From: Caldilineales bacterium
Lineage (GTDB): Bacteria > Chloroflexota > Anaerolineae > JAAEKA01
Length of the DNA stretch: 64,000 nt
NCBI GenBank assembly: GCA_025055015.1
Contig: JANWYQ010000210.1
Span: forward strand, 22,223 to 86,222
Reading direction: 5' to 3'
The notes under the pieces were generated by a model. The model was given only the letters and a program-made list of their open reading frames with translations, searched no databases and was not told where the DNA came from. This document shows, piece by piece, positions 21,526 to 35,692 of this stretch (its first letter is position 1; every line of letters starts with the position of its first letter). The position numbers were made by a program, and so were the translations under genes.

Positions 21526-22296
21526 ATGCTAGACCTCGCCAACAAGGTCGCCATCATCACCGGTGCATCGCGCGGCATCGGCCAGGCCATCGCCGAGGCC
21601 TACGCCCAAGCAGGCGCTGCCGTTGTCCTCACCAGCCGCAAGCTGGAGAACGTCGGGCCCGTGGCCGAGGCCATCCGCGCCGCCGGCGGCCGCGCCCTGG
21701 CCCTGGCCGCCCACGCCGGAGACCCGGCAGCCGCCGAGGCCGTGGTCCAGGCCGCGCTGGCGGAGTTCGGCCGCGTGGACATCCTGGTGAACAACGCGGC
21801 CACCAACCCCCACTTCGGACCACTGCTGACCGCGGAGGCCAGCCACTGGGACAAGATCATGGAGGTCAACGTCAAGGGCTACTTCTTTGCGGCCAAGGCG
21901 GCCGTGCCGGCCATGCAGGCCCAGGGCGGCGGCAAGATCATCAACATGGCCAGCATCGCCGGCATCAACCCGGGGCCGTTGATGGGGGTGTACAGCGTCA
22001 GCAAGGCTGCCGTGATCATGCTGACCAAGGCGCTGGCTGCGGAGCTGGCACCGGCCAACATCCAGGTCAACGCCATTGCGCCGGGGTTCATCAAGACGAA
22101 GTTCTCGGCTGCGCTGTGGAGCAACCCGGCGTTGAGCCAGGCCATCCAGCAGCTCACGCCGGCCGGCCGCATCGCCGAGCCCGCGGAGGTGGTGGGCGCG
22201 GCGCTGTACCTGGCCTCGGACCTGTCCGGCTTCACCACGGGCAGCGTGCTCGTCGTGGACGGCGGCTACCTGCTGGGTGCCACGCCGCGGCCGTGA
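21526..22296 (+). CDS. Short-chain dehydrogenase/reductase (FabG-like SDR)
   Basis: TGASRGIG Rossmann motif, NNAA, YxxxK (YSVSKAAV). Confidence 0.85.
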
Positions 22297-22335
22297 TCCG
22301 TGACCCGTGATCGGCCATCGGTGATCAGCCATTAG
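22292..22335. repeat. Heptanucleotide tandem repeat (CGTGATC-like, ~6 units) overlapping the SDR stop codon
   Basis: ccgtgatccgtgacccgtgatcggccatcggtgatcagccatt shows 7-nt periodicity. Confidence 0.6.
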
Positions 22336-22583
22336 CGAGTGCATGCGGGCGCGACGCCTCTCACCGGGAGGAGCGACCTCGGTGGACTGTAGCGCCTGTT
22401 ACCGTTCGCAGTGTACCGCCCACCGCGGTTTGCCCGCCTAGGCCCTTGGCGGTACAATAGGCGTCGGCTGGTCAAGCCGTTGGGTTGTTTCGCGGTACAG
22501 CGAGAGGATACCAGAGAGGACATGCCCTACCAACGATCGGTAGCTTGCGTTGGCTGGGGCTTTTTCTTTTTCAGGAGGTAGCC

Positions 22584-24077
22584 ATGCAGTTCGCCGACCT
22601 GTTGGGCGCCGAGGCCTTGACCTTCGACGACGTGCTGTTGGTGCCCGGCTTCGCCGAGGTGCTGCCCTCGGCGGTGGACATCCGCACCGAGCTGCACGAG
22701 AAGCTGAGGCTGAACATCCCGGTGCTGTCTGCGGCCATGGACACCGTCACCGAGGCGCGGCTGGCCATCGCCCTGGCCCGCCAGGGCGGTATGGGAGTGA
22801 TCCACCGCAACCTGAGCCCCCAGGCCCAGGCCGACGAGGTGGACAAGGTCAAGCGCTCCGAGGCGGGGATGATCGTGGACCCCATCACCCTGCGCCCCGA
22901 CAACACCTTGGCCGACGCCGAGGCCATCATGGCCCGCTACCACATCTCCGGCCTGCCGGTGACCGACAACGGCAAGCTGGTGGGTATCCTCACCAACCGC
23001 GACGTGCGCTTCGCCACCGATCGCTCGGCGCCGGTGAGCACCTACATGACCGCGCAGAACCTGATCACTGCGCCGGTGGGCACCTCGCTGGAGGAGGCCA
23101 AGGCCATCCTCCATCGGCACCGCATCGAGAAGCTGCCCCTGGTGGACGAGGAGTTCAACCTCAAGGGCCTGATCACCTACAAGGACATCCTGAAGAAGCT
23201 CGACTACCCCAACGCGGCCACCGATAGCCGGGGCCGCTTGCTGGTGGCCGCGGCCGTGGGCGTGGGCCCGGAGCTAGACGAGCGGCTGGAGCTGCTGCTG
23301 GACGCCGACGTGGACGCGGTGGCGGTGGACACAGCCCACGGCCACTCCGCCGGCGTGCTGCGCGCCATCCAGCGCATCAAGATGATCGCGCCGGAGCTGC
23401 CCGTGCTGGCCGGCAACGTGGTCACTGCCGAGGCCACCGAGGCGTTGATCCAGGCCGGCGCCGACGTGATCAAGGTGGGGGTCGGCGCCGGAAGCATTTG
23501 TACAACCCGCATTGTGGCCGGCGCAGGTGTGCCCCAGATGACCGCCATCGCCGAGTGCGCGCGGGCGGCGCGGCGCTACGGCGTGCCGGTGGTGGCCGAC
23601 GGCGGCATCAAGTACTCCGGCGACATCGTCAAGGCGCTGGCAGCCGGCGCCAGCGCGGTGATGCTGGGCTCGCTGCTGGCCGGACTGGAGGAGTCGCCGG
23701 GCGAGCTGGTGATCTACGAGGGACGGCGCTTCAAGGAGTACCGCGGCATGGGCTCCCTGGGGGCCATGAAGGGTCGCGGGGCCGACCGCTACGCCTCGGC
23801 GCAGGGCGGGGCGCAGAACCTGGGCACCTTCGGCAAGCTGGTGCCCGAGGGCATCGAGGGGCAGGTGCCCTACAAGGGGCCCCTGGCGGACTACATGTAC
23901 CAGCTCATGGGCGGGCTGCGCAGCGGCATGGGCTACGTAGGCGCGGCCAGCCTGGAGGACCTGTGGCGCAAGGCCCGCTTTGTGCGCATCACCAACGCCG
24001 GCCTGATCGAGAGCCATCCCCACAGCGTAGTGATCACCAAGGAAGCGCCGAACTATCAAGCGTTGCCGAGAGGTTGA
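22584..24077 (+). CDS. guaB: IMP dehydrogenase
   Basis: N-terminal [22 protein letters not shown], tandem CBS pair, catalytic [11 protein letters not shown] loop. RBS caggaggta. Confidence 0.9.
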
Positions 24078-24151
24078 GTGACGCGGACCGAGCCATGGGC
24101 AACCCGTAACACCTCATCCAGCATCAGGAGCGGTTACGGGGTACAAGCGCC

Positions 24152-34037: not shown

Positions 34038-35050
34038 GCCCTTCCGCCTACGCAAGGGCCGGAGTGGACATCGCTGCCGGCAACCGCGCCGTGAAGCTGA
34101 TGCGCGACGCAGTGCGCTCCACCTACGGCCCTGAGGTGCTGCTGGGGATCGGCGCGTTCGGCGGCCTGTTCAACGCCGCCGCGCTGAAGGCCATGGACGC
34201 GCCGGTGCTGGTGGCGTCCACCGACGGCGTGGGCACCAAGACCAAGGTCGCTGCGGCCCTGGTCCGCTACGAGACCATCGGCCACGACCTGGTCAACCAC
34301 TGCGTCAACGACATCCTGGTGCAGGGCGCGCGGCCGCTGTTCTTCCTGGACTACATTGCCAGCAGCCGGCTGGACCCGGAGATGGTGGCCACGGTGGTGA
34401 GTGGCGTGGCCGCCGCCTGCCGAGCGGTGGGCTGCGCGCTGCTGGGCGGCGAGACCGCAGAGATGCCCGATGTCTACGCCCCCGGCGAGTTCGACCTGGT
34501 GGGGACCATCGTGGGCGTGGTGGACCGCCGGGAGATCATAGACGGCTCGGCTGTGCGGCCGGGCGATGCGGTGATCGGCCTGCCCTCCTCAGGCCTGCAC
34601 ACCAACGGCTACTCCCTGGCCCGCCGTGTGTTGGACGGCTGGGACCTCCGGGCGGAGGCACCGGAGCTGGGCCGGCCGCTGGGCGAGGCGCTGTTGGCGC
34701 CCCACCGCTGCTATTTGGCCGAGGTCCAACGCCTGCGCCGGGCCGGCGTTCGCATCAATGCACTCGCCCACATCACGGGCGGCGGCCTGATAGACAACCC
34801 GCCGCGCATCCTGCCCCCCGGCACGGCCATCCGCCTGCGCCGCGGCAGCTGGCCTATCCCTCCCCTCTTCCACCTCCTCCAGCGCGTCGGCCAGATTGAC
34901 GACGCCGAGATGGCCCACGTCTTCAACCTGGGCCTGGGCATGCTGATCGTCCTCCCCGCCGATCAGGCAAACCTGGCCCTGAGCGTTCTGGGCGAGGGTT
35001 GGCTGGTGGGTGAGGTGGTGGAGGGCGAGCCGCAGTGTGTGATTGCGTAA
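34034..35050 (+). CDS. purM: AIR synthetase PurM
   Basis: Motifs GVDIAAGN, VASTDGVGTK, GGETAEMP. ATGA overlap with the upstream ORF. Confidence 0.9.
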   Translation: MSPSAYARAGVDIAAGNRAVKLMRDAVRSTYGPEVLLGIGAFGGLFNAAALKAMDAPVLVASTDGVGTKTKVAAALVRYETIGHDLVNHCVNDILVQGARPLFFLDYIASSRLDPEMVATVVSGVAAACRAVGCALLGGETAEMPDVYAPGEFDLVGTIVGVVDRREIIDGSAVRPGDAVIGLPSSGLHTNGYSLARRVLDGWDLRAEAPELGRPLGEALLAPHRCYLAEVQRLRRAGVRINALAHITGGGLIDNPPRILPPGTAIRLRRGSWPIPPLFHLLQRVGQIDDAEMAHVFNLGLGMLIVLPADQANLALSVLGEGWLVGEVVEGEPQCVIA

Positions 35051-35057
35051 TCCCTCC

Positions 35058-35675
35058 ATGCCCCCTCGCCTCGCCGTTCTCATCTCCGGCAGCGGCACCA
35101 ACCTGCAGGCCATCATGGACGCCATCGCAGCTGGCCGGCTCGACGCACAGATCGTGGTCGTGGTGTCCAACCGCCGCGACGCCTATGGCCTGGTGCGCGC
35201 GGGGCGGGCCGGCATTCCTACCCTCTACGTTCCCCTCAAGCCCTACACCGAGGCAGGCCGGCCGCGCGCGGACTACGACGCCGACCTGGCCGAGCGGGTG
35301 GCGGCCTACGCGCCCGACCTGGTGGTGTTGGCCGGCTGGATGCACGTGCTCAGCCCGTCCTTCCTGGATCGCTTTCCCGGCCGCGTTCTCAACCTGCACC
35401 CGGCGCTGCCCGGCCAGTTCCCCGGCACCCATGCCATCCAGCGCGCGTTCGAAGCTTTCCGGCGGGGGGAGATTGACCACACCGGCGTCATGGTCCACTG
35501 GGTGGTGCCCGAGGTGGATGCCGGGCCGGTGATCGCCAGCGAGGTTGTCCCCATCCTCCCCACGGACACGGTGGACGACCTGGAGGCGCGTGTCCACGCC
35601 GTCGAGCATCGCCTGTTGGTGGAGGCTATCCGCCGCGCGTTGGGGGAGCGGTGGTCGGTGAACGGTGAACGGTGA
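35058..35675 (+). CDS. purN: GAR formyltransferase PurN
   Basis: LISGSGTNL, NLHPALPG..G, HxV..ExDxGP motifs. C-terminal tail (GERWSVNGER) is encoded by heptamer repeats. Confidence 0.85.
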   Translation: MPPRLAVLISGSGTNLQAIMDAIAAGRLDAQIVVVVSNRRDAYGLVRAGRAGIPTLYVPLKPYTEAGRPRADYDADLAERVAAYAPDLVVLAGWMHVLSPSFLDRFPGRVLNLHPALPGQFPGTHAIQRAFEAFRRGEIDHTGVMVHWVVPEVDAGPVIASEVVPILPTDTVDDLEARVHAVEHRLLVEAIRRALGERWSVNGER

Positions 35676-35692
35676 ACGGTAAACGCTGAACG
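35654..35692. repeat. Heptamer repeat GGTGAAC x ~5 spanning the purN stop codon
   Basis: ggtggtcggtgaacggtgaacggtgaacggtaaacgctgaacgg. Confidence 0.7.

What the first reader, a model, noticed from the sequence alone, without database searches (positions are those of the whole stretch)
22292..35692. Genome-level family of GGTGAAC/GATCACC-type heptamer arrays at gene boundaries and inside pur genes
The same class of 7-bp tandem arrays recurs at least seven times in about 13 kb:
- 22292-22335, overlapping the SDR stop;
- 27321-27348, upstream of purQ;
- 27699-27750, a low-GC in-frame insertion in purQ;
- 29232-29298, upstream of purE;
- 32971-32991, in-frame in purD;
- 35654-35692, spanning the purN stop and creating a ...SVNGER tail;
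- the purL tract at 26016-26120.
The ArsA C-terminal tail (about 45450-45550) is likewise built from 21-bp (3x7) repeats. This points to a lineage-specific SSR family that remodels protein termini and linkers and could modulate expression at operon junctions.
Basis: seen in the sequence. Interest (0 to 1): 0.6.

Follow-up and report, generated by a model that had tools for sequence, protein, structure and literature searches.

The report
Seven-base repeat arrays in Chloroflexota genome
The 7-base tandem repeats are real and far beyond chance, but they are a Chloroflexota example of an already described bacterial repeat class, mostly decayed here, with one long array in purL that differs in length between two near-identical genomes.

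Summary
Confirmed in most part. Six of the eight listed tracts are period-7 arrays: the SDR stop, upstream of purQ, upstream of purE, purD, the purN stop and the purL linker.

- GGTGANC x3 with up to 3 mismatches hits 9 loci, against 0.16 matches expected.
- The purQ insert is period 8 in this genome.
- The ArsA tail is a 21-bp repeat with no 7-bp sub-period.

The window comes from a Caldilineales/Anaerolineae MAG. Related genomes carry intact versions at the same pur-operon junctions. There, (GTAACGA)n or (GGTGANC)n overlaps the stop codon, and the reverse-complement array sits upstream of the next start. The pair forms strong hairpins (z -3.7 to -8.4). In the window these hairpins have decayed (z about 0 to -1).

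One orientation has stop codons in all three frames and lies at ORF ends. The other is stop-free and is tolerated in frame in protein loops.

The purL linker array is orthologous in 7 genomes. It has 6 units in five of them, with different units, 15 in the window and 11 in a 99.9%-identical MAG. The 11-unit version splits purL, or reflects a collapsed assembly.

The same unit type occurs in many phyla. Heptamer SSR families are already described in cyanobacteria, Beggiatoaceae, Bacteroidetes and Xanthomonas. I rate this a new member of a known kind, of moderate interest.

The parts
22291..22336 (+). Heptamer array (CCGTGAT/CGGTGAT type, about 6 units) in the stop-containing orientation. The SDR stop TGA (22294-22296) lies in unit 1.
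   Evidence: TRF. Lag-7 identity 0.70. Pattern hits at 22292 and 22306.
22398..22432 (+). Possible decayed opposite arm (xxxACCG units) in the SDR-IMPDH spacer.
   Evidence: Read by eye at about 45-50% lag-7 identity. Not statistically secure.
24964..24998 (+). Degenerate GNTCACC-type array in the stop-free orientation inside purS-purL. It encodes ...SAHRSPLAAQR...
   Evidence: Three overlapping hits on the - strand. Lag-7 identity 0.61.
26026..26131 (+). 15 x TGGTCAA/TGGCCAA/TGGCCGA array, in frame, encoding (WSMVNGQ)-type repeats. It sits in the linker between the two halves of PurL.
   Evidence: TRF score 156-184. Lag-7 identity 0.85 and lag-14 identity 0.95. Orthologous arrays in 6 other loci. 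The alignment to T. maritima PurL 2hs0 breaks here. 11 units in L001.
26296..26327 (+). Short degenerate period-7 tract inside purL (...CGAGCGGCGAGCGGTGAACCGT).
   Evidence: lag-7 identity 0.76.
27225..27257 (+). Decayed relic of the (GTAACGA)n-CCGGAA arm. It holds the purL stop (TGA 27233-27235) and the only GTAACCCGGAA in the window (27246-27256).
   Evidence: Alignment A1 with L002, L003 and L005. Motif search.
27321..27349 (+). 4 units GGTTACC GTTCACC GCTCACC GTTCAGC in the stop-free orientation, abutting the purQ ATG (27353). No Shine-Dalgarno motif is visible.
   Evidence: TRF. Pattern hits with 1 mismatch. Lag-7 identity 0.76.
27699..27750 (+). Low-GC in-frame insert in PurQ (PLSNLSISPSTNQQ). 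It is the decayed remnant of one arm of an inverted heptamer-array hairpin insert seen in relatives. It is period 8 here, not 7.
   Evidence: Lag-8 identity 0.55 against lag-7 identity 0.38. Protein alignment A2. Arrays in relatives and their folds at z -4.1 to -4.4.
29180..29203 (+). Degenerate GTGAACC GTAAAGG CGAAACG tract holding the purC stop (TAA 29188-29190).
   Evidence: Sequence. Lag-7 identity only 0.47. Weak.
29232..29298 (+). Degenerate GATCACC/GGTCACC array of about 9 units, stop-free orientation, upstream of the purE ATG (29309).
   Evidence: Pattern hits at 29253 and 29260. Lag-7 identity 0.45.
29792..29865 (+). AGCCCGT x2 over the purE stop (TAG 29798-29800), plus the relic GTGACGA GTGATGC GTAACAA GCAATGC in the purE-purF spacer.
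   Evidence: TRF row 29792-29806. Sequence. Intact arrays at the same junction in L002, L003, L005 and L125.
32970..32992 (+). CCGCTCA CCGCTCA CCGTTCG, in frame in a PurD loop (RSPLTVRGSS).
   Evidence: TRF. Lag-7 identity 0.79. At the same loop L002 has a roughly 90-residue repeat insert (91 alignment columns gapped in the window) ending in a GATCACC array.
35643..35692 (+). GGTGAAC array of 5-7 units in the stop-containing orientation. It holds the purN stop (TGA 35673-35675) and encodes the last 8-9 residues.
   Evidence: TRF score 64. Exact 3-unit match. Lag-7 identity 0.84.
62378..62409 (-). Degenerate array inside aroE, a - strand gene. The sense strand reads the stop-free GTTCACC type (TVHCSPFTVQ).
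   Evidence: lag-7 identity 0.72. Pfam match to shikimate dehydrogenase. Identical in L126 and L127.

Best explanation
These tracts are heptanucleotide simple-sequence repeats of the STRR type, known from cyanobacteria, Beggiatoaceae, Bacteroidetes and Xanthomonas. Here they sit in a Caldilineales/Anaerolineae (Chloroflexota) genome.

**Shown: architecture.** In this clade the arrays come as inverted pairs at cistron junctions. An arm whose unit contains TGA or TAA, such as GGTGANC or GTAACGA, has stops in all three frames when repeated with period 7. That arm overlaps the stop codon of the upstream gene. The reverse-complement, stop-free arm (GNTCACC) runs up to the next start codon.

**Shown: coding copies.** Stop-free copies are also tolerated in frame in surface loops and linkers of housekeeping enzymes. 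Their copy number there stays a multiple of three.

**Shown: decay in this genome.** Most arrays in the window are decayed orthologues of arrays that are intact and hairpin-forming in relatives. Only the purL and purN arrays are still near-perfect.

**Inferred: origin.** The arrays arise and are homogenised by slipped-strand mispairing or intra-array recombination. Selection on reading frames then decides where and in which orientation they survive.

**Inferred: function here.** In this genome they are mostly neutral relics with little regulatory role.

**Inferred: the 15 versus 11 difference.** The difference at purL is either recent slippage or an assembly collapse.
For: **Reality of the family**
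-.

**Organism**
- PurL is 100% identical to MCS6845743.1, named 'Caldilineales bacterium'.
- A sister MAG, GCA_033578055.1, is about 99.9% identical.

**Clade-wide arrays**
- L002 has 15 period-7 runs in 23 kb, against 0-2 for other periods that are not multiples of 3.
- L003, L005 and L125 show the same.

**Orthology and decay**
- In the purL-purQ spacer alignment, the window's GCAGCGA GTGACGG CCATTGC GTAACCC GGAA lines up with the relatives' GTAACGA GTAATGC GTAACCC GTAACCC GGAA.
- GTAACCCGGAA occurs once in the window, at that exact place.

**Hairpins**
- Relatives fold at z -8.4, -7.8, -7.1, -5.8, -3.7 and -2.7 at junctions, and at -4.1 to -4.4 inside purQ.
- The window junctions fold at z -0.1 to -1.1.

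**Orientation rule in the window**
-, read against the gene map.
- The rule also holds for 3 new junction arrays in the flanks.

**Frame selection**
- PurL arrays have 6, 6, 6, 6, 6, 9 (inferred from the 21-residue linker of P0011) and 15 units.
- In the amidohydrolase array, every in-frame TGA is replaced by TGG or GGG.

**Concerted evolution**
- The same flanks hold different homogeneous units: CAATTGT, CAATTGC/A, CCCATTA, TAACGGT and TGGTCAA.

**Slippage-type change**
- Over about 46.6 kb shared by the two MAGs there are only two indels. One is 28 bp in the purL array and one is 1 nt in a T-run.

**Precedent**
- Heptamer SSRs are over-represented in bacteria and a polymerase-slippage idea has been proposed (PMC4692102).
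- TAACTGA repeats show the same forward-stop, reverse-translatable behaviour (PMC4679880).
Against: - Slippage was not observed directly.
- Short arrays are identical between independent assemblies: L003 and L004, L123 and L124, and the window against L126 and L127. Turnover is therefore slow for short arrays.
- The 6-unit length at purL is conserved in five diverged genomes, and the junction hairpins are conserved in four of them. This is more conservation than a purely neutral SSR model predicts.
- Inverted pairs are strongly polar across phyla: 24 with the stop-containing arm first against 4 the other way. Independent slippage alone does not explain this.
Confidence: 0.72

Rival explanations
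1. The inverted heptamer arrays are functional RNA elements. They would form intercistronic hairpins that stabilise, process or terminate the pur transcript, or arrays of binding sites for a single-strand-binding regulator (Csp, S1 or CsrA-like, as proposed for TAACTGA repeats). The stop-laden 5' arm would make ribosomes terminate before they melt the hairpin.
For: - Array positions are conserved at the IMPDH-purL, purL-purQ and purE-purF junctions in genomes whose PurL proteins are 78-90% identical.
- Hairpins in relatives are very stable.
- Inverted pairs are polar, 24 against 4, across phyla.
- The array abuts the purQ start and no Shine-Dalgarno motif is visible.
- MacGregor reports the same placement for TAACTGA repeats (PMC4679880).
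Against: - In this genome the hairpins have decayed to shuffle level while the operon is intact.
- Units differ between junctions and between species.
- RNAalifold gives a positive (unfavourable) covariation term, and only 2 of 26 pairs show a two-sided change.
- There are no Rfam matches and no terminator-like sites at the arrays.
- No candidate regulator was identified.
Confidence: 0.2
2. The inverted pairs are copies of a small palindromic mobile element (MITE, REPIN or RPE-like) with a conserved ...GTAACCCGGAA tip. It would insert between genes and, in frame, inside genes. The tandem heptamers would be its subterminal repeats.
For: - The GTAACCCGGAA tip recurs at several junctions in L002, L003, L005, L037 and L073. 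This includes an unrelated baseplate gene cluster in the Caldilineales MAG DTUCFX11.
- A palindromic unit reads the same way round whichever way it inserts, which fits the 24-to-4 polarity.
- A hairpin-forming insert lies inside purQ.
- A YhgA-like (Transposase_31) ORF sits in the pur operon here and in relatives.
Against: - Units vary widely between sites, so there is no single element sequence.
- No target-site duplications or empty sites were found.
- The insertions are ancient and orthologous rather than polymorphic.
- The purL linker array is a single direct array with no opposite arm.
Confidence: 0.12
3. The purL array is a phase-variable (contingency) switch. Slippage by a number of units that is not a multiple of 3 turns full-length PurL off, or splits it into two translationally coupled chains.
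For: - The window has 15 units and an intact 1017-residue PurL. GCA_033578055.1 has 11 units and ORFs of 641 and 370 residues.
- ORF1 stops at the TGA in AATTTGAC just after the array. ORF2 starts at an ATG inside the array, and the two overlap by 13 nt.
- The unit contains ATG and has no stop on the sense strand.
- neuO is a proven in-ORF heptanucleotide switch (PMC13001214).
Against: - This is a single observation between two short-read MAGs.
- The missing 28 bp is exactly one higher-order period inside an exact internal repeat of at least 42 bp (units 5-10 equal units 9-14). A de Bruijn assembler can collapse such a repeat.
- N-gaps lie next to arrays in L005, which shows that arrays disturb assembly.
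- purL is a housekeeping gene, not a typical contingency target.
- All other orthologues are in frame.
Confidence: 0.1
4. The tracts are chance or a compositional artefact of a 69% G+C genome.
For: A few weak period-7 runs are G+C-rich and look like chance, for example 18159, 35972 and 43879.
Against: - 18 matches were found against 0.16 expected.
- Period 7 gives 12 runs against 1-2 for comparable periods.
- Orthologous arrays occur in independent assemblies.
Confidence: 0.01

Closest known systems
Cyanobacterial STRR (short tandemly repeated repetitive) heptanucleotide sequences (Mazel et al. 1990; unit sequences recalled from my own knowledge; mentioned in PMC4692102)
   Same: - Tandem 7-nt units in several unit families per genome.
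- Many dispersed arrays, mostly at gene boundaries.
- Host is a filamentous bacterium.
- The window's TGGTCAA unit differs by one base per unit from STRR2 (TTGGTCA).
   Different: - Different phylum (Chloroflexota) and a G+C content of 63-69%.
- Different unit sequences.
- Here the arrays are shown to be orthologous across species, to occur in frame in housekeeping enzymes, and to be largely decayed in this genome.
TAACTGA heptamer direct repeats of Beggiatoaceae, Cyanobacteria and Bacteroidetes (MacGregor 2015, PMC4679880)
   Same: - Intergenic heptamer arrays placed within a few nucleotides of start codons that lack a Shine-Dalgarno motif.
- The 'forward' orientation gives stop codons and the 'reverse' orientation is translatable and found inside ORFs.
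- Arrays mix with other heptamer units.
- Contigs often break at the arrays.
   Different: - Different units.
- Here the typical arrangement is an inverted pair forming a hairpin, with the stop-containing arm on the upstream gene's stop.
- In that study only one indirect repeat was found in BOGUAY.
GGGAATC / GGGGAYT heptamer repeats of Xanthomonas and Nostoc (Rehm et al. 2015, PMC4692102)
   Same: - Intergenic heptamer SSR family.
- Arrays lie between the same genes in related species but vary in length and sequence.
- Some occur as inverted pairs.
   Different: - Those repeats are G-tract repeats able to form G-quadruplexes.
- The units here have no G-tracts.
neuO heptanucleotide VNTR in E. 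coli K1 (PMC13001214)
   Same: - Heptanucleotide array inside an ORF.
- Full-length product only when the copy number is divisible by 3.
- Slippage changes the frame.
   Different: - neuO is a phage-borne surface-modification gene with documented switching rates.
- purL is a core biosynthetic gene, and the single 15-versus-11 difference may be an assembly artefact.
REP/BIME, REPIN and Rickettsia palindromic elements (own knowledge; REPINs in PMC3116915, not read)
   Same: - Hairpin-forming intergenic palindromes at operon junctions.
- RPE-like in-frame insertion into protein-coding genes, as in the purQ insert of relatives.
   Different: - Those are dispersed copies of one defined sequence.
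- Here the arms are tandem arrays of variable short units, and no mobilising enzyme is evident.

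Membership tests
Heptanucleotide SSR / STRR-type repeat family (generic class) | Head-to-tail repeats of a 7-nt unit, 2 or more units, significantly over-represented relative to other unit lengths | tested here: met
   Period 7 gives 12 runs against 1-2 for periods 5, 8, 10, 11, 13 and 16. 18 matches against 0.16 expected.
Heptanucleotide SSR / STRR-type repeat family (generic class) | Many dispersed arrays per genome, not one locus | tested here: met
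   About 13 arrays in the 64-kb window, plus 4 in the 15.7 kb of flanks from the sister MAG. The whole genome was not available.
Heptanucleotide SSR / STRR-type repeat family (generic class) | Preferential location at or between gene boundaries | tested here: met
   7 of about 13 window arrays and 3 of 4 flank arrays touch a stop codon or lie in a spacer, while spacers make up roughly 12-16% of the sequence.
Cyanobacterial STRR1-3 sensu Mazel 1990 | Unit sequences CCCCAGT, TTGGTCA and CAACAGT, in heterocystous cyanobacteria | tested here: not met
   Units here are GGTGANC, TGGTCAA and GTAACGA. The host is Chloroflexota. STRR unit sequences are recalled from memory.
TAACTGA repeat family (MacGregor 2015) | Unit TAACTGA | tested here: not met
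   No such unit appears among the arrays listed.
Phase-variable contingency locus | SSR within an ORF or promoter whose length change alters frame or expression | tested here: met
   11 units against 15 shifts the purL frame. The gene is called as two ORFs in GCA_033578055.1.
Phase-variable contingency locus | Reproducible length heterogeneity within and between closely related populations | tested here: inconclusive
   One difference between two MAGs, which could be an assembly collapse. Other arrays are identical between assemblies. The metagenome scan for the locus found nothing.
Phase-variable contingency locus | Measured ON/OFF switching of the product | not testable with these tools
   Needs cultures, or read-level and proteomic data.
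Mobile palindromic element (MITE/REPIN/RPE) | Dispersed copies sharing one defined sequence with terminal inverted repeats | tested here: inconclusive
   A shared GTAACCCGGAA tip occurs in 5 genomes, but the arms vary in unit and length.
Mobile palindromic element (MITE/REPIN/RPE) | Target-site duplications, or presence/absence polymorphism between close relatives | tested here: not met
   Insertions are orthologous in all relatives compared. No empty sites were seen between the two near-identical MAGs.
Intrinsic terminator / known structured RNA | Match to an Rfam family, or a G+C-rich stem followed by a T-run | tested here: not met
   No Rfam match in the window. No terminator-like site at any array.

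The most novel reading that the evidence does not exclude
The window's arrays would be the eroded trace of a cross-phylum, polar element class.

- **Structure.** An inverted pair of heptamer arrays in which the 5' arm always carries stop codons in all three frames, on both DNA strands, and the 3' arm is its complement.
- **Proposed action.** The pair would work as a translation stop plus an RNA hairpin placed exactly at ORF ends. It might spread as a palindromic unit.
- **Evidence that fits.** Conservation at every pur-operon junction across diverged Caldilineales genomes. The 24-to-4 polarity seen in Gemmatimonadota, Chloroflexota, Planctomycetota, Verrucomicrobiota and others.
Probability: 0.15. 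Interest if true: 0.6.

Novelty: new member of a known kind. Interest (0 to 1): 0.36.

Why it matters
- **Taxonomic range.** Heptanucleotide repeat families are known mainly from cyanobacteria, Beggiatoaceae, Bacteroidetes and Xanthomonas. This extends them to Chloroflexota and, through the collection scan, to Gemmatimonadota and several other phyla.
- **Comparative series.** The same sites can be followed across genomes. This shows concerted evolution of the unit, copy numbers held to multiples of three, replacement of in-frame TGA codons, and decay in a higher-G+C lineage.
- **Practical consequences.** Such arrays break or collapse metagenome assemblies. They create apparent frameshifts and split-gene calls, such as the 641 + 370 residue 'AIR synthase-related proteins'. 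They also add odd low-complexity loops to core enzymes.
- **Open question.** If the polarity of the inverted pairs reflects function, they would be an under-described class of intercistronic element.

Tried and rejected
- **Chance or composition.** Rejected.
- **ArsA tail as a 3x7 repeat.** Rejected: lag-7 identity 0.19-0.23 against lag-21 identity 0.90.
- **purQ insert as a heptamer array in this genome.** Rejected, since it is period 8. It is kept as a decayed orthologue.
- **Known RNA family or intrinsic terminator at the arrays.** Nothing found.
- **Hairpin function in the window.** Folds do not differ from shuffles.
- **Pur-operon-specific regulator sites.** Arrays are concentrated in the pur operon in the window, L002 and L125. 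But they also occur in a baseplate gene cluster in DTUCFX11 and at aro, amidohydrolase and AMP-ligase genes in the flanks. They are therefore not pur-specific.
- **More alleles of the purL array.** A metagenome scan with the left flank returned 0 hits.
- **Papers that could not be read.** The Elhai 2008 and Mrazek 2007 papers are not held.
- **Literature on heptamer repeats in Chloroflexi, Anaerolineae or Gemmatimonadetes.** Searches found nothing relevant. This is a limit of the library, not proof that no report exists.
- **STRR unit sequences as search terms.** The search returned only irrelevant papers.

Full report

TRF on the whole window lists period-7 arrays at five sites:
- 22291-22312
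- 26026-26131 (15.1 copies, score 156; 184 as a 14-mer)
- 27325-27346
- 32970-32986
- 35656-35694

A lag-autocorrelation scan finds 12 period-7 runs with score 10 or more. Periods 5, 8, 10, 11, 13 and 16 give 1-2 each, and second-order Markov simulations give about 2.5.

The pattern GGTGANC x3 with up to 3 mismatches gives 18 matches in 9 loci. Dinucleotide shuffles give 0.16 on average and never more than 2.

Lag-7 identity per claimed tract:

| Tract | Lag-7 identity |
|---|---|
| SDR stop | 0.70 |
| Upstream of purQ | 0.76 |
| Upstream of purE | 0.45 |
| purD | 0.79 |
| purN stop | 0.84 |
| purL | 0.85 |

Two claimed items fail.
- The purQ insert (27699-27750) is period 8 here (0.55 against 0.38).
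- The ArsA tail is a plain 21-bp repeat (lag-21 identity 0.90, lag-7 identity 0.19-0.23).

The purL coordinates are off by about 10 nt. The true span is 26026-26131.

**2. Genes and organism**

Pfam confirms the following gene order:
- SDR
- IMPDH
- a purS-purL fusion
- purQ, purC, purE, purF
- a Phd/PIN toxin-antitoxin pair
- purD
- a YhgA-like ORF
- purM, purN

PurL from 24182 is 100% identical to MCS6845743.1, named 'Caldilineales bacterium'.

A second MAG, GCA_033578055.1 ('Anaerolineae bacterium'), is about 99.9% identical over the roughly 46.6 kb that I could compare.

**3. Orientation rule**

GGTGANC repeated with period 7 puts TGA in all three frames. Its complement GNTCACC has no stop in any frame and encodes (V/D)HRSP(F/I)T-like peptides. 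This follows directly from the sequence.

In the window the stop-containing orientation occurs at ORF 3' ends. At SDR the stop lies in unit 1. At purN the stop lies in the array and the last 8-9 residues are array-encoded. A degenerate tract at 26296-26327 in purL has one out-of-frame GGTGAAC unit.

The stop-free orientation is on the sense strand in two settings:
- inside ORFs: purL 24964, purD 32972, and aroE 62379 on the minus strand
- directly upstream of starts: purQ and purE

TGGTCAA likewise has no stop on the sense strand and encodes WSMVNGQ.

**4. Relatives show the intact form**

PurL homologues at 78-87% identity over aligned columns (63-85% by BLASTP) carry 7-residue-periodic peptides at the same linker position. 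Examples are QLSIVNC, INHSPLT and GERLTVN.

I fetched five such loci. Period 7 dominates in each:
- L002: 15 runs in 23 kb
- L003: 7 runs in 13 kb
- L005: 10 real runs in 17 kb
- L125: 10 runs in 18 kb

The arrays there are inverted pairs. (GTAACGA)n-CCGGAA overlaps the stop codon of IMPDH, purL, purE or another gene. A loop follows, then TTCCGG-(GTTACNN)n or (GATCACC)n runs up to the next start.

These pairs fold far better than shuffles. At junctions z is -8.4, -7.8, -7.1, -5.8, -3.7 and -2.7. For an inverted array inserted in frame inside purQ, z is -4.1 to -4.4.

**5. The window holds decayed orthologues**

In the purL-purQ spacer alignment, the window's GCAGCGA GTGACGG CCATTGC GTAACCC GGAA sits under the relatives' GTAACGA GTAATGC GTAACCC GTAACCC GGAA. 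The window's GGTTACC GTTCACC GCTCACC sits under their opposite arm.

The 11-mer GTAACCCGGAA occurs once in the window, exactly there.

Similar relics lie at the IMPDH-purL and purE-purF junctions.

Many of the substitutions raise G+C, which fits the window's 69% G+C against 63-67% in the relatives.

The window junctions fold no better than shuffles, with z between -0.1 and -1.1. Whatever the hairpins do in relatives is therefore not needed to keep this operon.

**6. In-frame arrays sit at tolerated loops**

- **PurL.** The array lies where the alignment to T. maritima PurL (2hs0) breaks, between the two halves of the enzyme.
- **PurD.** The window has RSPLTVRGSS. L002 has a roughly 90-residue repeat insert ending in DHRSPITDHRPP. 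L003 has a minimal loop.
- **PurQ.** Relatives have about 30 residues encoded by the hairpin insert. The window has lost one arm.
- **Amidohydrolase, just outside the window.** A TGGTCAA-type array lies in the stop-containing sense orientation. It survives because every in-frame TGA is replaced by TGG or GGG, giving the peptide INHWPLTIDHGPLTIDH.

**7. The purL array across seven loci**

The flanks are identical (...GAGTGG / TTTGAC[CG]GAG), but the units differ and are homogeneous within each genome:
- CAATTGT x6 in L125
- CAATTGC/A x6 in L003
- CCCATTA x6 in L002 and L005
- TAACGGT/GAACGGT x6 in L123
- TGGTCAA/TGGCCAA x15 in the window
- the same unit x11 in L001

One further homologue (P0011) has a 21-residue linker, which implies 9 units.

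This is concerted evolution at one old site. Copy number stays a multiple of 3 everywhere except L001.

In L001 the missing 28 bp is one higher-order period. The frame shifts and ORF1 stops at the TGA in AATTTGAC. A second ORF starts at an ATG inside the array with a 13-nt overlap.

Units 5-10 and 9-14 of the window array are identical, giving an exact internal repeat of at least 42 bp. Scaffold gaps also lie next to arrays in L005. An assembly collapse is therefore at least as likely as a real allele.

Shorter arrays are identical between independent assemblies.

The only other indel between the two MAGs is 1 nt in a T-run.

**8. Is it genome-level and lineage-specific?**

Inside the window, 8 of the 9 pattern-scan loci lie in the pur cluster. 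L002 and L125 show the same concentration.

The 15.7 kb flanking the window adds four arrays. Three lie on or next to stop codons in the expected orientation and one lies in an ORF.

A Caldilineales MAG (DTUCFX11) has 11 arrays in 6.6 kb around baseplate-like genes. The family is therefore genome-wide in the clade and not specific to pur genes.

It is not lineage-specific. The hits were in:
- Gemmatimonadales, about 30 loci
- Chloroflexota
- Bacteroidota
- Planctomycetota
- Verrucomicrobiota
- Acidobacteriota
- Actinomycetota
- Proteobacteria, including isolates

Most of those stretches carry further period-7 arrays.

Among inverted pairs in all loci, the stop-containing arm comes first in 24 cases and second in 4.

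**9. Comparison with known systems**

- Heptamer SSRs are reported as over-represented in many bacterial genomes, and a polymerase-slippage explanation has been suggested. Xanthomonas GGGAATC arrays lie between the same genes in related species with variable length, and some are inverted (PMC4692102).
- TAACTGA repeats in Beggiatoaceae, Cyanobacteria and Bacteroidetes sit just upstream of start codons without Shine-Dalgarno motifs. They give stops in 'forward' orientation, are translatable in 'reverse', and break assemblies (PMC4679880).
- neuO is a proven in-ORF heptanucleotide switch (PMC13001214).
- Cyanobacterial STRRs (own knowledge) are the classic case.
- I found no report for Chloroflexota or Gemmatimonadota in the held library.

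**10. Verdict**

This is a real repeat family, correctly spotted. Its 'remodelling of termini and linkers' is supported by comparative data.

It is a new member of a known kind. In this genome it is mostly a fossil record of hairpin-forming arrays that are intact in relatives.

The regulatory idea is untested and, for this genome, weakly disfavoured. The purL length difference is the one potentially functional polymorphism and needs read-level confirmation.

The polarity of the inverted pairs across phyla is the most interesting loose end.

Noticed in passing
window 35695-35928: Directly after the purN array lie 40/81-bp tandem repeats. Each contains a GTGCGC(N)CCCC(N)GGTGCGC hairpin followed by GGTTTT. 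No other copies occur elsewhere in the window (3 pattern matches, all local).
   Followed up: partly
window 33465-34037 (+); also L002 21531-21896 and L125 17665-18363: A YhgA-like PD-(D/E)XK 'Transposase_31' ORF sits between purD and purM in this genome and at the same place in two relatives. Any link to the repeat arrays is pure speculation.
   Followed up: partly
window 31492-32111 and 20823-21508: Toxin-antitoxin pairs lie next to and inside the pur cluster. A Phd/YefM antitoxin plus PIN toxin sits between purF and purD. A small ORF plus PIN sits upstream of the SDR gene. A promoter-like site at 31427-31455 precedes the first pair.
   Followed up: partly
window 45484-45534: The ArsA C-terminal tail carries 2.4 copies of a 21-bp repeat (GCCGCTGCGACAAGCTCGGCA) encoding an Ala-rich 7-residue repeat. 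It is unrelated to the heptamer family.
   Followed up: yes
L128 7222-7275 (GCA_033578055.1, about 570 bp left of the window start): A second TGGTCAA-type array of 7.7 units lies inside an amidohydrolase gene on the opposite strand. It is kept open by TGA-to-TGG/GGG changes at every in-frame position.
   Followed up: yes
L005 4051-4150 and 10324-10423: 100-N scaffold gaps lie immediately beside long heptamer arrays, which shows that these arrays break short-read assemblies.
   Followed up: no
window 8643 versus L128 16438: The only other indel between the two near-identical MAGs is one T in a T7/T8 homopolymer. It is again an SSR-type difference.
   Followed up: partly
L002 20770-21040 (purD): The closed relative has a roughly 90-residue insert of about five 15-residue repeats (SRYGADAYSTSGAEG) in the same PurD loop that holds the window's short heptamer tract.
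   Followed up: no
L086 (Luteirhabdus pelagi, 40% G+C) and L101 (Akkermansiaceae MAG): These genomes are extremely rich in heptamer arrays, with 19 and 13 arrays per 8 kb and many different units. The phenomenon is therefore strong in cultured Bacteroidota and in Verrucomicrobiota too.
   Followed up: no
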